Shown here piece by piece: positions 41,742 through 47,476 of a stretch of DNA of 64,000 nucleotides. The translations under genes and the position numbers were made by a program. Origin of the DNA: Promethearchaeota archaeon. GTDB lineage: Archaea; Asgardarchaeota; Lokiarchaeia; Sigyniarchaeales; SOKP01. The notes beneath the pieces are model-generated. The model worked only from the letters and a program-made list of their open reading frames with translations. It made no database searches and was not told the DNA's origin. Each line of letters opens with the position of its first letter. The first letter of the stretch is position 1. The stretch covers positions 96,001 through 160,000 of the forward strand of contig JAEOUA010000010.1 of the NCBI GenBank assembly GCA_016839555.1. Direction: 5' to 3'.

Positions 41742-42986
41742 TTAATAGTTAAATTGCTTTAATCGATCAACTGTAGTATACAATCGTTTGCCTCCTCTGC
41801 GGAGATAATCCATTGCCTCTTCTATTCCCTCAATAGTCAAATTATACATAGGGATAAGGCTGGAAATTATCCTTCTGGTCCAAGGTTGCCATTCGAATCT
41901 AATAAGTTCTGGATTAAGCCAGACGGTATTATTCTTAAAATGATCTTTAATTTCTCTTAAATAATAGATGCCCGGCATTTCATTTCGATGATAATAGTAT
42001 ATTGATCCATATCGTTCGGTAAGTTCCCATGAGGCCATGGCAGCATCGCCAACTATTACAATTTTGTAATTCTTATCGTATTTTTTAAGAAATTCATCAA
42101 AATCGATGGCTTCTTCGGGATTTCTCTGAGCATTTTCATAAAGAGTTTCATAAATACAATTATGAAAATAGTAATATTTAAATTTCTTCCAATGGGACAT
42201 GTTATTGGCTGCAGAAAAGAGCTTATTTACTAAATGAGCATATGGCGTCATCGAGCCACCCACATCCATTAATAAAAGCAGCTTTACATTATTTTTTCTT
42301 CGCTTTTCAAATACAATTTCAATATCTCCCCCGTTTTTTGCAGTTTTATCAATGGTTTTATCAATATTAAGCTCATCTAACTTACCGATTTCTTCCAATT
42401 TTCGTAGCCGCTTAAGAGCTACTTTAATTTGTCTCGTATCTAATACAATATCCTTGCGATAATCTCGAAATATCCTTTTTTGGGCAATTTGTACTGCCAT
42501 GCGCATTCCTGAGCCCCCACCTAGTCTCATTCCCATCGGATTGCGTCCTGAATGCCCGAATTGGGCTTCACCTCCAGTACCTATCCATTGATTCCCAAAA
42601 TTATGCTCTTCATCTTGTTTTTGCATTAGCTCCTCAAAATGTTGTTGAAGTTCTTCTATGTTAAAATTCATTTGCAAAAATTCTTGTAGTTCTTTTCGAT
42701 ATTGTGGATCAATTTCATCTAAATCTAATGGCTTTTCTAACCAATCCCAGATTTGTTGCTTAATATCATCCGGAAATTTTAATTGGGCATCCTTAAAAAA
42801 ATTCGCAAATGCTATATCATATACATCAAATTGATGCTCATTTTTGCAGAAAATCGAACGAGAAATATAATAAAATTGTATCATATTGCTAATTAAACCT
42901 TTATCGAGCGCTTCCATTAGGGTCATGTATTCTATAAGGCTTACAGGTAAGCGCTCTTTAAGGTAGTAAAAGAATTCAACAAACAA
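41742..42986 (-). CDS. VWA-domain CoxE-like partner of MoxR AAA+ ATPase
   Basis: WIGTGG, LLMDVGGSMTPY (MIDAS-like), YFHNC, VGDAAM, WLNP; directly downstream of the AAA gene. Confidence 0.9.
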   Translation of the reverse strand: MFVEFFYYLKERLPVSLIEYMTLMEALDKGLISNMIQFYYISRSIFCKNEHQFDVYDIAFANFFKDAQLKFPDDIKQQIWDWLEKPLDLDEIDPQYRKELQEFLQMNFNIEELQQHFEELMQKQDEEHNFGNQWIGTGGEAQFGHSGRNPMGMRLGGGSGMRMAVQIAQKRIFRDYRKDIVLDTRQIKVALKRLRKLEEIGKLDELNIDKTIDKTAKNGGDIEIVFEKRRKNNVKLLLLMDVGGSMTPYAHLVNKLFSAANNMSHWKKFKYYYFHNCIYETLYENAQRNPEEAIDFDEFLKKYDKNYKIVIVGDAAMASWELTERYGSIYYYHRNEMPGIYYLREIKDHFKNNTVWLNPELIRFEWQPWTRRIISSLIPMYNLTIEGIEEAMDYLRRGGKRLYTTVDRLKQFNY

Positions 42987-43064: not shown

Positions 43065-44008
43065 TTATGTTGGAAATTTGAGCTTATCCAAGGCAACCTC
43101 TAAGTCTTTTTCCTTTTTTATTAGGGTGCCTAAAAATGGAAAGCTATTCTTAAATTTCTCTATTGAGATGCCGCTTTTGAGCAATACTCCAATCCAATCT
43201 AATAATTCTGAAGTGGAGGGCATTTTACGTAGATTTGTAATTGCTCTTAGTTGGTAAAATTTCTTAATACATTCATTTAAAAGGTTATCTTTCAAATTAG
43301 GATAATGGATCTTACAGATCTCCCTCATGAACTCTTTATCTGGAAATTCAATGTAATGAAAAACACATCTTCTTAAAAACGCATCGGGTAATTCCTTCTC
43401 ATTATTGGATGTAATTATAACAATAGGTCGATGTTTAGCTTTGAAAAATTCATCTGTTTCCTTTATATAAAATTCCATTACGTCTAATTCCTGAAGCAAA
43501 TCGTTCGGAAATTCTATTTTCCGTAGAATATAGTCAGTTATATTCTATATCGGCTTTATCGATTTCATCGATAAGAAGAACGACTTGCTCCTCAGATACA
43601 AATGCTTGTCCTAACGGTCCGAGCTCGATATAATCATGGATGTTATTTACATCCCTCTCCTCGCTACCAAACCTACTATCGTTTGATCTCCAAGTTATAA
43701 TTTAACTTTGAATTAATCTCTTAATAGTATCATATTGGTAGCAGCCAAAAATTGCTTCACTGGTCGATTTAATGTTCCATATTATCAATCTTTTACCTAT
43801 GGCTTCTGCTATTGCATGTGCAAGGAGAGTTTTTCCCGTTCTGGTAGAAATTAACATATTAAAATCTATTTCCAGGCTCTCCTTTTACGAGCAATGGTCG
43901 AGCTAAGGCTATTGACACATTTACTATGTTTTGTAGCTGCGGATCTGCGATATATTTTATGTTTGCGGTATTTACATTTCCTTCGAATTGATTAAAGGTT
44001 TGACTCAT
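43065..44008 (-). CDS. MoxR/CoxD-type AAA+ ATPase, 4 exons (44008-43870, 43838-43713, 43682-43549, 43517-43065), 283 aa after splicing
   Basis: Exon lengths 139+126+134+453 = 852 nt = 283 aa + stop: MSQTFNQFEG...RPLLVKGEPG^TGKTLLAHAIAEA...YQYDTIKRL^NDSRFG...VVLLIDEIDKAD^IEFPNDLLQELD...IITSNNEKELPDAFLRRC... The ORF track calls only most of exon 4. Confidence 0.9.
43518..43548 (-). other. Putative BHB intron 3 (31 nt) just after Walker B
   Basis: ATAGAATATAACTGACTATATTCTACGGAAA; helix GCCG/CGGA (one G.A), bulges AU^A and AA^A, perfect 9-bp stem UAGAAUAUA/UAUAUUCUA. Confidence 0.85.
43683..43712 (-). other. Putative BHB/BHL intron 2 (30 nt, in-frame TAA)
   Basis: TTCAAAGTTAAATTATAACTTGGAGATCAA; helix GAUU/GAUC, bulges AA^U and AA^A, intron stem UCAAAGUUA/UAACUUGGA, exon stem UACUAUU/GAUAGUA. 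Confidence 0.85.
43839..43869 (-). other. Putative BHB intron 1 (31 nt) inside Walker A
   Basis: ATAGATTTTAATATGTTAATTTCTACCAGAA; helix CUGG/CCAG, bulges AA^A and AA^C, intron stem UAGA/UCUA, exon stem AAGGAGAG/CUCUCCUU. Confidence 0.88.
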
Positions 44009-45832: not shown

Positions 45833-46186
45833 TTAGAGCCATTCTACTGTAGATGAGCAGCCTAATCCTTCTTGATCTTTAATTCTTCCATAAACAAGGA
45901 ACGAGGCACCCTCATAACCACATTCGGGGCATTTATTTTTTGCTACTAATTCTACTAAGTCATCAATCACAACAGCATGGTTAACTGAGGCAGATACACC
46001 AAAAGGAGTAAGTACTTCTAGAAAGCCTTTCTCACCGACATCTTCTATGGGATCCAGAGATTCTAAATCTCTAATAATAATTCGAGCTTGAGGCGGTGTG
46101 TGAAAAATAAAATCTTGATATTTATCCGACCAATGGCTGCCAAAAAATCTTTTCCTTCCAATTCCCTTATTAAATTCCAGAACCAT
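45833..46186 (-). pseudogene. C-terminal fragment of a LuxE/acyl-protein synthetase-like gene
   Basis: FHTPPQARIIIRDLESL...GEKGFLEVLTP...VVIDDLV...CPECG...GRI...GCS; only ~110 bp upstream before the thioredoxin gene. Confidence 0.6.
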
Positions 46187-46298
46187 TTTCAGTTAAGAAA
46201 AAAACTAAAACTGGCACCATAATTTGATGGTAATTTTAAACAAATTTCATTTTAAATGGTTAAATCTATACCATCAATCCAACATAAAATAGGCAGAT

Positions 46299-46643
46299 TT
46301 ACATTTGTTTAATAATCTCTTTTAAAATTAATTCACCTGTTGCTCCAATCATAACTCCATTTTTGACCATAATATACCCCTCGATTTTTATCTCTTTTTC
46401 TAAAAGCTTTCCATCTTTAAAAAATAATAAGGTAGGAACACTTGTTATGCCTAATGATGTTACTAAATCAGGTTGCTGATAAAGGTCAATTTGAATTAAA
46501 TTAATTAATCCTTTATCCCGAAATTTTTCAAGTAGCGGAGATAGAATTTTACATGGTTCGCACCATTCAGAAGAAATATCAACAATTAGTTTTCCTTTTT
46601 TAGCTCCCTCTATCCCAAATTTTTTAAGATCTTCGAGTTCCAT
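46299..46643 (-). CDS. Thioredoxin family protein
   Basis: WCEPC; ITSVPTLLFFKDG. Confidence 0.88.
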   Translation of the reverse strand: MELEDLKKFGIEGAKKGKLIVDISSEWCEPCKILSPLLEKFRDKGLINLIQIDLYQQPDLVTSLGITSVPTLLFFKDGKLLEKEIKIEGYIMVKNGVMIGATGELILKEIIKQM

Positions 46644-46666
46644 AAATAATTCAATTCTTTATGTAA

Positions 46667-47476
46667 TTAAAGTTTATTTCCGCAATAATGACAATATATT
46701 GCTTCTTTAAGATTTTCCGCGCCACATTTTTCGCAAATCATAAATTCTTTATCTGGTTTTTCTTTCGACATTTCTTCATATTTATCATATAGAGTATTAA
46801 GCTTTTTTCTTTTAAGATTAAGTTTATATTTATTGATATTTTTTCCAATCAATTCTATTATGCTATTCCATTTATCCCATTTAACGGAAGGTAATTTAAG
46901 AATAGATTCATTGCTCTTTGGATTAAATATAGATTTTCGATCTTCTATTAATACATTTTCATTCCCTTTTTCAAGATTAAATTTAAGGTCATTTAATTGT
47001 TTTTTAAGCTTTCTTTTTTTGATAAAATTACTCTTTGCTTTCTCTACTAAATAATTTATGAAATCCTCTTTTAATATAATCAAATTATTTTCATTAGATC
47101 TAAAGCACTTTTCATCCATTAAAATATTAGCCGCTACAAATTCCTTTCTTTCTTTAATTTTTTCCTCGATTTTTCGTTTTAATTCCTCTATTTTTAAATT
47201 AATTTCATTAGCATTTATATTTTGAGAAAAATTGTTTTTTATTTTCCTCTTTTCATTATTTATATTACTCCATCTTGGTCTCCTATAATTGCTAGGAGGA
47301 TGTTGAATATTTGGCTGGCGAATTATATTATTATAAAGAGCATATCGAAGAACTGTTCTATTATTTAAGCAATAAGAATTACGGTTATGTCCCCTTCTTC
47401 TCATCTTAATTATACACCTCTTTTTAATTTTATTTTTAAAATTAAATTTAGATTTTTTCAAATAATGAATAATCAT
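46667..47476 (-). CDS. Hypothetical basic/coiled-coil protein with C-terminal zinc ribbon (start may be ATG 47404)
   Basis: C-terminal CEKCGAEN...YCHYCGNKL. Confidence 0.7.
   Translation of the reverse strand: MIIHYLKKSKFNFKNKIKKRCIIKMRRRGHNRNSYCLNNRTVLRYALYNNIIRQPNIQHPPSNYRRPRWSNINNEKRKIKNNFSQNINANEINLKIEELKRKIEEKIKERKEFVAANILMDEKCFRSNENNLIILKEDFINYLVEKAKSNFIKKRKLKKQLNDLKFNLEKGNENVLIEDRKSIFNPKSNESILKLPSVKWDKWNSIIELIGKNINKYKLNLKRKKLNTLYDKYEEMSKEKPDKEFMICEKCGAENLKEAIYCHYCGNKL

What the first reader, a model, noticed from the sequence alone, without database searches (positions are those of the whole stretch)
43065..44008. Protein-coding gene with three tiny BHB-type introns: a spliced MoxR/CoxD AAA+ ATPase mRNA in a probable Asgard archaeon
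Seen: the minus strand from ATG 44008 encodes a well-conserved MoxR/CoxD ATPase broken by insertions at 43869-43839 (31 nt), 43712-43683 (30 nt) and 43548-43518 (31 nt). At each, the last exon bases pair with the insertion's 3' end to form a 4-bp helix (one G.A mismatch in the third) flanked by two 3-nt bulges, plus an internal hairpin. Cutting after the 2nd nt of each bulge gives, in all three cases, exactly the conserved sequence (GEPG-TGKT; KRL-NDS; DEIDKAD-IEFPNDLL) and one 852-nt ORF with no other lesion. The VWA partner gene downstream is intact. Established: archaeal tRNA-splicing endonuclease (EndA) cuts BHB motifs at that position, an RtcB-type ligase joins the exons, and the crenarchaeal cbf5 pre-mRNA intron is the classic mRNA precedent. 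Inference: this is a functional multi-intron mRNA. Gene callers would miss it or call it a pseudogene, so a hidden class of micro-introns may exist in Asgard protein genes. I cannot confirm from here whether this has already been described.
Basis: partly seen in the sequence, partly recalled or inferred. Interest (0 to 1): 0.97.

Follow-up and report, generated by a model that had tools for sequence, protein, structure and literature searches.

The report
Three tRNA-type introns in Asgard gene
A conserved AAA+ ATPase gene of an uncultured Lokiarchaeia-type (Asgard) archaeon is broken by three 30-31-base inserts shaped like tRNA introns; relatives show the gene is still under selection, so its mRNA is very probably cut and re-joined by the tRNA-splicing enzymes, which the papers I could search confirm for only one archaeal protein gene (cbf5).

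Summary
Removing 43869-43839, 43712-43683 and 43548-43518 from the minus strand gives one 852-nt ORF, a 283-aa AAA+ ATPase with its Walker A loop restored. Each insert has bulge-helix-bulge (BHB) geometry, reached by at most 1 in 10,000 shuffles.

Of 115 orthologues found in the order, nearly all are uninterrupted. Eight genomes besides this one or including it carry inserts at these sites:
- Site 1: this genome and one other genus.
- Site 2: this genome and one congener.
- Site 3: this genome, one congener and three genomes of another genus.

Stems keep pairing through compensatory changes, including one between a synonymous exon base and the intron's 3' end. Exons are under strong purifying selection (pN about 0.1, pS 0.74-0.94). 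Contigs from other studies carry the inserts. The genome encodes a two-subunit EndA and one RtcB. At least six other conserved genes in it carry similar inserts.

I found no RNA data, so splicing is inferred, not shown. The 3' sites are relaxed, not canonical, BHB.

This scan has already flagged such mRNA introns on other DNA (DPANN and Asgard genomes). In the papers I could search, only cbf5 is a confirmed coding-sequence case. Verdict: real, very probably spliced, and a new member of a known kind. What is unusual is three introns in one gene, with presence/absence polymorphism.

The parts
43870..44008 (-). Exon 1 (139 nt): start codon to the first two bases after the GEPG codons of the Walker A loop
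   Evidence: Aligns without gaps to uninterrupted orthologues.
43839..43869 (-). Intron 1, 31 nt, phase 1. It splits the P-loop GEPG|TGKT and carries an in-frame stop four codons in.
   Evidence: Central helix 4/4 pairs, bulges AA|A and AA|C, interior hairpin. Shuffle test 0/20,000. The same site is occupied by a 31-nt intron in G046 of another genus, with compensatory stem changes. Present in contigs of runs X2, X4 and X5.
43713..43838 (-). Exon 2 (126 nt)
43683..43712 (-). Intron 2, 30 nt, phase 1. Its length is a multiple of three, but it contains an in-frame stop.
   Evidence: Central helix 4/4 pairs (one G-U), bulges AA|U and AA|A, 9-position hairpin with one A.G mismatch. Shuffle test 2/20,000. 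Same site and length in congener G002, with compensatory changes in the hairpin and in the 7-bp exon-exon outer helix. Present in a contig of run X5.
43549..43682 (-). Exon 3 (134 nt), ending at the Walker B region DEIDKAD
43518..43548 (-). Intron 3, 31 nt, phase 0. Perfect 9-bp hairpin with an in-frame stop in the loop. Its first 7 nt repeat the first 7 nt of exon 4.
   Evidence: Central helix 3/4 plus G.A, bulges AU|A and AA|A. Shuffle test 0/20,000. Same site in congener G004 (31 nt; differences only in the loop and the last nt) and in G111, G112 and G077 of another genus (32 nt, different 9-bp hairpin, central helix 4/4 through a correlated exon/intron change).
43065..43517 (-). Exon 4 (453 nt including the stop): rest of the AAA+ module and the C-terminal lid
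   Evidence: 59-87% identical to orthologues in 115 of 154 genomes of the order.
41742..42986 (-). Downstream partner gene, a CoxE-type VWA protein (414 aa), intact, 78 nt after the ATPase stop
   Evidence: Pfam VWA_CoxE, E 1.6e-08

Best explanation
The gene at 44008-43065 (minus strand) is a working AAA+ ATPase gene (MoxR-like, AAA_5 type, paired with a CoxE-type VWA gene) interrupted by three bulge-helix-bulge micro-introns.

Inferred mechanism. After transcription, each insert folds locally. Four exon bases pair with the intron's 3' end, the intron interior forms a hairpin, and both splice points lie in 3-nt unpaired stretches. The organism's two-subunit tRNA-splicing endonuclease (EndA, alpha-beta type with the crenarchaeal-type loop region) cuts after the second base of each bulge. 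RtcB then joins the exons and probably circularises the 30-31-nt introns. Only the spliced mRNA encodes the 283-aa protein. Unspliced copies stop inside each intron.

What is shown: the anatomy, the conservation, the covariation, and the presence of the enzymes.
What is inferred: cutting and ligation in vivo.

The introns are evolutionarily mobile in the sense of presence or absence. Within one genus, all four combinations of introns 2 and 3 occur. This requires precise losses, repeated gains, or exchange by recombination.
For: 1. Exact restoration of an 852-nt ORF and of the invariant Walker A loop.
2. BHB geometry at all three inserts. Jointly it was reached in 0, 2 and 0 of 20,000 shuffles.
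3. 115 of 154 genomes of the order have the orthologue, and nearly all are uninterrupted. The same three sites are occupied in a few: site 1 in G046; site 2 in G002; site 3 in G004, G111, G112 and G077.
4. Pairing is kept through changes on both sides. At site 3, 6 of 9 hairpin pairs differ between the two genera, and the central helix changes from GCCG/CGGA to GCAG/CUGU or CUGC. That is a synonymous exon base covarying with the intron. At site 2, three hairpin pairs and one pair of the exon-exon helix change on both sides, and another exon-exon pair goes from U.G to C-G. At site 1, two hairpin pairs change on both sides.
5. Strain variants in other metagenomes fall in the loop and in a bulge of intron 1 (X5).
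6. Exons show pN 0.09-0.13 against pS 0.74-0.94 (saturated). Values are the same for interrupted and intact alleles, and there is no other lesion in any of the eight intron-bearing alleles read.
7. The genome has two EndA genes. One aligns end to end with the catalytic subunit of the Aeropyrum pernix heterotetramer (3p1z_B, E 5e-40), including the N-terminal loop region. The other is more divergent. There is one RtcB. PMC5829648 reports the alpha-beta type with the L1 loop for Asgard, the type that cuts relaxed BHB motifs.
8. tRNA introns of the same genome have the same size range and geometry. ARAGORN finds 17 of 28 tRNAs with an intron.
9. Other conserved genes of the genome carry 28-32-nt inserts with the same geometry, and their removal restores invariant motifs: rnhB, dnaG, AMP phosphorylase, top6B and porB. 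A CoA-transferase insert was found by homology alone, without using the motif.
Against: - There is no RNA evidence of any kind, so no junction read or circular intron has been seen.
- The 3' splice points are not canonical bulges. The adjacent exon-exon helix is weak or offset, and at site 1 the unconstrained minimum-energy fold prefers a competing exon-exon pairing over the central helix.
- Intron 3 of this genome has a G.A mismatch in the central helix.
- Intron 3 begins with the same 7 nt as exon 4, so its splice point cannot be fixed from the product alone.
- My structure-plus-ORF census of the genome showed no excess over shifted controls, so I cannot give a genome-wide count.
Confidence: 0.85

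Rival explanations
1. Young pseudogene: the ATPase gene was inactivated by three small insertions and is decaying. The BHB-like folds are incidental.
For: Unspliced, the gene yields only fragments of 49, 51 and 144 aa. There is no RNA evidence of splicing. The gene is not found in 39 of 154 genomes of the order, so it may be dispensable.
Against: - No lesion other than the three inserts in this genome, and none in the seven other intron-bearing alleles read.
- Synonymous sites are saturated while pN stays near 0.1, exactly as in intact alleles.
- Inserts sit at identical sites in different genera with compensatory stem changes.
- The joint geometry is reached in at most 1 in 10,000 shuffles per insert.
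- Genes expected to be essential (dnaG, top6B, rnhB, porB) in the same genome carry the same kind of insert.
Confidence: 0.03
2. Recoding at the ribosome: the inserts are skipped during translation (a gene-60-type hop) instead of being removed from the RNA.
For: - Each insert carries a stop within a few codons of its start, followed by a hairpin.
- At insert 3 the first 7 nt are repeated at the start of exon 4, which would give matched take-off and landing codons.
Against: - Inserts 1 and 2 have no matched take-off and landing codons that would give the conserved product. The conserved product needs a cut inside a codon (phase 1) at both.
- In G004 the repeat at site 3 is imperfect, and in G111 and G112 the intron start (ATAATG) and the exon 4 start (ATTGA) share only two bases.
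- The feature conserved across all nine intron copies read is the pairing of exon bases with the intron's 3' end, which bypassing does not need.
Confidence: 0.03
3. The inserts are removed, but not by EndA and RtcB. Candidates are another RNA-processing activity, or excision at the DNA level in part of the population.
For: - The 3' sites are relaxed rather than canonical BHB, and at site 1 a competing fold has the lower energy.
- Intron-less and intron-bearing alleles coexist among close relatives.
Against: - The geometry matches the rule for EndA cutting (after the 2nd base of each 3-nt bulge, 4 bp apart; PMC2738675) at all nine intron copies read.
- tRNA introns of the same genome share it.
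- No contig laid on the stretch skips an insert (tables 4 and 5).
- The inserts belong to no repeated sequence family in the genome.
Confidence: 0.06
4. Assembly or sequencing artefact: the inserts do not exist in the organism's DNA.
For: The genome is a metagenome-assembled genome (12 contigs, 6.4% contamination).
Against: - Contigs from a second sample (X2) and from other studies and habitats carry inserts 1 and 2, and part of insert 3, without gaps: X4 marsh, X5 marsh, X3 soil.
- Independent genomes carry inserts at the same sites.
Confidence: 0.01

Closest known systems
BHB intron of the cbf5 (pseudouridine synthase) pre-mRNA in Crenarchaeota (Watanabe 2002; Yoshinari 2006; Yokobori 2009, PMC2738675)
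   Same: - A short intron inside a protein-coding sequence, with an unconventional (relaxed) BHB motif.
- Predicted cuts lie between the 2nd and 3rd bulge residues.
- The host has a hetero-oligomeric EndA.
- Patchy distribution, with gain and loss among relatives.
   Different: - cbf5 has one intron at one site, and it has been confirmed by cDNA and in vitro cleavage.
- Here there are three introns in one gene, in a different phylum (Asgard/Lokiarchaeia-type) and a different, non-informational gene.
- Splicing here is not yet shown.
Archaeal tRNA BHB introns, including the heavily interrupted tRNA genes of Asgard archaea (bioRxiv 10.64898/2026.10.13.758758; Marck and Grosjean 2003)
   Same: - Same motif, same size range and same presumed enzymes.
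- In this genome 17 of the 28 tRNAs that ARAGORN finds have introns, several with the same H-bulge-hairpin-H-bulge layout.
- Repeated gains and losses are reported for the tRNA introns too.
   Different: - The substrate is an mRNA.
[quoted passage not shown] At site 3 a synonymous position covaries with the intron.
BHB intron in the 5' UTR of Haloferax volcanii HVO_1309 (PMC7714728)
   Same: An mRNA cut by EndA at a BHB motif and released as a circle. That paper states that cbf5 was the only other mRNA case reported.
   Different: It lies in an untranslated region, so the reading frame does not depend on it. Here translation of the full protein depends on all three splicing events.
Translational bypassing of phage T4 gene 60
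   Same: A short non-coding gap inside a coding sequence, with a stop just after its start and a hairpin.
   Different: Matched take-off and landing codons are absent at two of the three inserts. The conserved feature here is exon-intron base pairing, not codon matching.

Membership tests
Archaeal BHB (EndA-spliced) introns | [quoted passage not shown] | tested here: met
   The central helix has 4/4 pairs at sites 1 and 2 and in all three genus-g11 copies of site 3. It has 3/4 plus G.A in the two genus-g1 copies of site 3. The 5' bulge is a true 3-nt bulge in all nine copies.
Archaeal BHB (EndA-spliced) introns | Cutting after the 2nd base of each bulge gives the functional product | tested here: met
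   the product is collinear, without gaps, with uninterrupted orthologues at all three junctions. The rule is stated in PMC2738675.
Archaeal BHB (EndA-spliced) introns | Flanking helices h (exon-exon) and h' (intron) of the strict hBHBh' form | tested here: inconclusive
   h' is present everywhere (hairpins spanning 9-10 positions, fully paired or with one or two mismatches or a single bulged base). h is weak or offset: 1 bp plus a distal 6-bp helix at site 1, a 7-bp helix behind a 4x4 loop at site 2, and about 2 bp at site 3. This is a relaxed HBh'-type motif, the kind cut only by broad-specificity EndA (PMC5829648).
Archaeal BHB (EndA-spliced) introns | Host encodes a splicing endonuclease able to cut relaxed motifs, and an RtcB ligase | tested here: met
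   There are two PF01974 genes. One aligns over residues 27-198 with the A. pernix catalytic subunit 3p1z_B, including the loop region; the other is divergent. There is one full-length RtcB (564 bits).
Archaeal BHB (EndA-spliced) introns | Structure maintained in evolution (covariation) | tested here: met
   compensatory changes in the hairpins at all three sites, in the central helix at site 3, and in the outer helix at site 2. The sample is small (2, 2 and 5 copies) and the sequences are related.
Archaeal BHB (EndA-spliced) introns | Spliced RNA and excised (circular) intron exist in the cell | not testable with these tools
   One search lists no RNA holder for this stretch.
MoxR-class AAA+ ATPase with VWA partner | AAA+ module with Walker A and Walker B, a family-level profile match, and an adjacent VWA gene | tested here: inconclusive
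   The uninterrupted orthologue L002 hits Pfam AAA (50.6 bits) and AAA_5 (45.4 bits), both above their cut-offs. No MoxR-specific (AAA_3) or CoxD model hit. NCBIfam MadB_ATPase matches only in part, far below its cut-off. Walker A GEPGTGKT and DEID are present. A VWA_CoxE neighbour is present. 'MoxR-like' is reasonable; 'CoxD' is not shown.
Translational bypass element (gene 60 type) | Matched take-off and landing codons flanking the gap | tested here: not met
   absent at inserts 1 and 2, which need a cut inside a codon. Present only at insert 3 of this genome and G077, imperfect in G004, and absent in G111 and G112.
Group I / group II introns and inteins | Ribozyme-sized intron, or an in-frame protein-splicing insert | tested here: not met
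   The inserts are 30-32 nt. Two of the three are not multiples of 3, and all contain in-frame stops.

The most novel reading that the evidence does not exclude
In this family of Lokiarchaeia-type Asgard archaea, cutting and re-joining of messenger RNAs by the tRNA-splicing enzymes is a routine, genome-wide step of gene expression. Dozens of protein genes would be mosaics of short exons and 28-32-nt introns, some with several introns. The introns would be gained, exchanged and precisely lost on short evolutionary time scales: all four combinations of two introns occur within one genus, and two nearly identical proteins differ by one intron. That would be an intron-exon gene architecture with population dynamics in the closest prokaryotic relatives of eukaryotes. 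It would be invisible to standard gene callers, and it could serve as a switch, because each intron stops translation unless it is removed.
Probability: 0.5. Interest if true: 0.85.

Novelty: new member of a known kind. Interest (0 to 1): 0.68.

Why it matters
In the papers I could search, splicing of an archaeal coding sequence by the tRNA endonuclease is confirmed for one gene only. That gene is cbf5 (PMC2738675; PMC7714728 says so as of 2020).

- A protein gene with three such introns shows the mechanism is not a curiosity of one gene. It sits in an Asgard lineage whose tRNA genes are already known to be heavily interrupted.
- Gene callers will report such genes as fragments or pseudogenes. 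Metabolic and phylogenomic inventories of Asgard genomes will therefore undercount intact genes. In this genome the affected genes include rnhB, dnaG, top6B, porB and AMP phosphorylase.
- The presence/absence polymorphism within one genus offers a tractable system for asking how BHB introns arrive and leave. The tRNA-intron literature leaves that question open.
- Exon codons form half of each splice motif, so these genes also show protein coding and RNA structure constraining each other.

Tried and rejected
1. Genome-wide census by BHB geometry plus ORF merging. I tried several stringencies, two hexamer coding models, an antisense-ORF filter and constrained hairpin energies. Counts never exceeded controls with the junction shifted by 1-2 nt. 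The background comes from antisense ORFs, short AT-rich ORFs and hairpins at same-strand gene boundaries. Registers offset by a base at true loci also contaminate the controls. No count can be given from this.

2. Homology-based, motif-free sample. ORFs from 381 kb of G072 were compared with the whole genome; 186 conserved ORFs were usable. Only one further insert with a stop was found (CoA-transferase). Short first exons are missed by this method.

3. Sequence-family search for the inserts: no repeated element. The resemblance between introns 1 and 3 (19 of 31 positions, by eye) stays unexplained.

4. RNA evidence: no RNA holder listed for the stretch.

5. Laid contigs cover the stretch only in pieces. 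No single record spans all three inserts.

6. Co-conversion of exon flanks around intron 3 between G000 and G004. Identity in the flanking windows is 0.90-0.93 against 0.85 for intron-less G002 in the same conserved region. This is too small a difference to claim.

7. Homing-endonuclease neighbour, a lead from earlier notes on other genomes. None is present beside this gene. The neighbours are a PAS histidine kinase, the VWA gene, a DUF285 protein, a thioredoxin and a zinc-ribbon protein.

8. Class-level search added six orthologues outside the order, all uninterrupted in the frame read.

9. The suspected split LuxE-like gene at 45833-47476 turned out to be separate genes.
Full report
**What is in the sequence**

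The minus strand from ATG 44008 to the stop at 43065 does not give one ORF. It gives fragments of 49, 51 and 144 aa. Removing exactly 43869-43839 (31 nt), 43712-43683 (30 nt) and 43548-43518 (31 nt) leaves 852 nt that translate without a stop into 283 aa. The junctions restore the P-loop GEPG|TGKT, then KRL|NDS, then DKAD|IEF. The first two junctions lie inside a codon (phase 1) and the third lies between codons. Each insert carries a stop for the incoming frame within six codons.

The window is G000:C10:96001-160000, part of a 3.74-Mb, 12-contig, 29% G+C genome.

**Geometry**

At each insert the same layout appears:
- The four exon bases that precede the last two exon bases pair with intron bases -6 to -3. 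This is 4/4, 4/4 and 3/4 plus a G.A mismatch.
- The last two exon bases and the first intron base are unpaired.
- The intron interior is a hairpin that starts at intron base 2 and ends at base -7.
- The last two intron bases and the first base of the next exon are unpaired.

This is the layout of an archaeal tRNA intron at position 37/38, with cuts after the second base of each bulge. The cbf5 paper states the same rule (PMC2738675). In 20,000 shuffles per insert, the central pairing and the hairpin energy were reached together 0, 2 and 0 times.

The weak point is the exon-exon helix beside the 3' cut. It is 1 bp plus a distal 6-bp helix at site 1, a 7-bp helix behind a 4x4 internal loop at site 2, and about 2 bp at site 3. 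At site 1 the unconstrained minimum-energy fold prefers a competing exon-exon pairing. The motifs are therefore relaxed (HBh'-like).

**Relatives**

The exon-4 protein finds an orthologue in 115 of 154 genomes of the order. It finds six more in the rest of the class, all uninterrupted in the frame read. The open frames show that nearly all orthologues are uninterrupted.

Intron states by site:

| Site | Genomes carrying an intron | Length |
|---|---|---|
| 1 | G000; G046 (another genus) | 31 nt |
| 2 | G000; G002 (congener) | 30 nt |
| 3 | G000; G004 (congener) | 31 nt |
| 3 | G111, G112, G077 (a third genus) | 32 nt |

Within the genus, G001 has none of the inserts, G002 has only insert 2 and G004 has only insert 3, each at the same site. 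No intron-bearing allele has any other lesion.

**Covariation**

- Site 3: the two genera have unrelated hairpin sequences but both keep nine pairs, and six of the nine differ on both sides. The central helix changes from GCCG/CGGA to GCAG/CUGU or CUGC. The third base of an alanine codon thus changes together with its partner in the intron. Between G000 and G004 the only differences are two loop bases and the last, bulged, base.
- Site 2: three hairpin pairs change on both sides and one mismatch becomes a pair. In the 7-bp exon-exon helix, A-U becomes G-C and U.G becomes C-G.
- Site 1: two hairpin pairs change on both sides, and a double U.U mismatch becomes two pairs.

The sample is small and the sequences are related, so these are counts, not probabilities.

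**Selection**

Between G000 and six orthologues, pN is 0.09-0.13 and pS is 0.74-0.94. Synonymous sites are therefore saturated and dN/dS is well below 0.1. Pairs of intact genes give the same figures. Intron 3 is 28/31 identical between G000 and G004, while their exons are 74.5% identical.

**Not an artefact**

Contigs of four runs were laid on the stretch:
- X2 (second sample of the source study) covers insert 1 with no differences.
- X4 (marsh, another study) covers insert 1 in a 340-nt piece with 13 differences, none of them in the insert.
- X5 (marsh, another study) covers inserts 2 and 1 in one 235-nt piece. Its two differences inside insert 1 fall on a loop base and on the last, bulged, base.
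- X3 (soil) reaches 16 nt into insert 3.

No contig skips an insert.

**Enzymes and tRNAs**

The genome has two genes with the endonuclease catalytic domain and one RtcB. One EndA aligns over residues 27-198 with the catalytic subunit of the Aeropyrum pernix heterotetramer (3p1z_B, E 5e-40), without gaps through the N-terminal loop region. The other is divergent, as expected of a structural subunit. PMC5829648 reports this alpha-beta type with the L1 loop for Asgard archaea and links the loop to cleavage of relaxed motifs.

ARAGORN finds only 28 tRNA genes, 17 of them with an intron of 8-43 nt. Several show the same helix-bulge-hairpin-helix-bulge layout. This fits the preprint on heavily interrupted Asgard tRNA genes.

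**Other genes of the genome**

Following first-stage notes, I read five more cases in the DNA: rnhB (28 nt), dnaG (29 nt), AMP phosphorylase (31 nt), top6B (32 nt) and porB (31 nt). By my own reading of that DNA, each has the same geometry. Removing each insert restores a conserved motif such as DEAGRGP or DKHSTGGVPGNK.

A motif-free comparison of 186 conserved ORFs of G072 with this genome found one more. It is a 30-nt insert with a stop in a CoA-transferase gene, and by my reading it has the same geometry. My attempts at a structure-based census failed (see Tried and rejected).

**History**

On a maximum-likelihood tree of 28 orthologues, intron presence needs at least three changes on well-supported branches.
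- G000 groups with G001 (no intron) and G002 (intron 2 only).
- G046 (intron 1) and G013 (none) are near-identical proteins.
- G111 and G077 (intron 3) form a tight pair apart from an intron-less member of their genus.
- Within the genus, introns 2 and 3 occur in all four combinations.

No tree can explain this with single gains alone. Precise loss, repeated gain at the same site, or exchange by recombination must have happened. I could not tell which. The exon flanks of intron 3 are only slightly more alike than expected, and no endonuclease gene lies beside the locus.

**What the protein is**

The uninterrupted orthologue hits Pfam AAA and AAA_5 above their cut-offs. It also shows weak, partial NCBIfam matches (MadB ATPase, GvpN). 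The neighbour is a CoxE-type VWA protein. 'MoxR-like AAA+ ATPase with a VWA partner' is fair; 'CoxD' is not shown.

Bacterial homologues reach 53-64% identity over exon 4. The nearest named archaeal record is a Promethearchaeum sp. genome at 68%.

**Rivals**

- Pseudogene: excluded for practical purposes by the selection and covariation data.
- Ribosomal bypassing: fails at inserts 1 and 2, which need a cut inside a codon and lack matched codons.
- Artefact: excluded.
- Removal by some other activity: cannot be excluded without RNA or enzyme data, but nothing points to it.

**Comparison with what is known**

The closest case is the cbf5 intron of Crenarchaeota, which has a relaxed BHB, a hetero-oligomeric EndA, and gain and loss among relatives (PMC2738675). 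PMC7714728 adds a 5' UTR intron in Haloferax and states that cbf5 was the only other mRNA case. My five literature searches found no report of BHB introns in Asgard protein genes.

This scan has already noted many such candidates on other DNA, including Asgard rnhB, a DRG GTPase and an AAA+ ATPase next to a thiolase. Those notes were leads for me, not evidence.

**Verdict**

This is a real feature. It is very probably a spliced, three-intron protein gene (confidence 0.85), and a new member of a known kind. What is unusual is the number of introns in one gene and the polymorphism among close relatives. RNA evidence is still missing.

Noticed in passing
G000 C12:69954-69981 (+), outside the window: rnhB: a 28-nt insert splits the catalytic DEAGR|GP motif. 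Central helix AGGG/CCCU, bulges AG|A and AA|A, hairpin with one mismatch.
   Followed up: partly
G000 C12:205678-205708 (+), outside the window: AMP phosphorylase: a 31-nt insert splits DKHST|GGVPGNK. Perfect 9-bp hairpin, central helix UAGU/GCUA, bulges AC|A and AA|A. It joins open frames of 179 and 336 codons.
   Followed up: partly
G000 C7:129737-129765 (+); C5:511956-511987 (-); C6:79408-79438 (+), outside the window: dnaG (29 nt), top6B (32 nt) and porB (31 nt) each carry an insert with the same layout. Removing it joins the conserved halves of the protein.
   Followed up: partly
G000 C6:53409-53438 (-), outside the window: A family III CoA-transferase gene carries a 30-nt insert with an in-frame stop, absent from the G072 orthologue. 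It was found by homology without using the motif. It has a 7-bp hairpin, a 3/4 central helix with a G.A mismatch, and 3-nt bulges.
   Followed up: partly
whole genome G000: ARAGORN finds only 28 tRNA genes in a 92%-complete genome, 17 of them with an intron. Many tRNA genes are probably hidden by non-canonical or multiple introns.
   Followed up: partly
window 43542-43548 and 43511-43517 (minus strand): The first 7 nt of intron 3 repeat the first 7 nt of exon 4. From the product alone, the splice point could lie at any of eight positions. This may be a trace of how the intron arose. The repeat is imperfect in G004 and shrinks to two bases in G111 and G112.
   Followed up: partly
window 43855-43857 (minus strand): An ATG in the loop of intron 1 is in frame with exon 2, and creates the 51-aa ORF 43702-43857. 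The G046 intron at the same site has no ATG, so this looks accidental.
   Followed up: yes
window 43839-43869 versus 43518-43548: Introns 1 and 3 share their ends (the first five bases, and a six-base block before the central-helix strand) and 19 of 31 positions overall. This could mean common descent or a preference of the enzyme. There is no further copy in the genome.
   Followed up: partly
L036 (G046) versus L015 (G013): Two nearly identical orthologues of one genus (tree branches 0.015 and 0.036) differ by the presence of intron 1. That points to a recent gain or a precise loss.
   Followed up: partly
L033 (G058:C8, contig end at 17564): The contig of G058 ends exactly at the exon 4 boundary, so the state of site 3 there is unknown. 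The assembly may have broken at an intron hairpin.
   Followed up: no
window 45833-46186 (-): A 117-aa ORF matches only the C-terminal fifth of the LuxE acyl-protein synthetase profile (positions 307-385 of 391). The ORFs upstream are unrelated (a thioredoxin and a zinc-ribbon protein). It may be a gene remnant or a stand-alone domain.
   Followed up: partly
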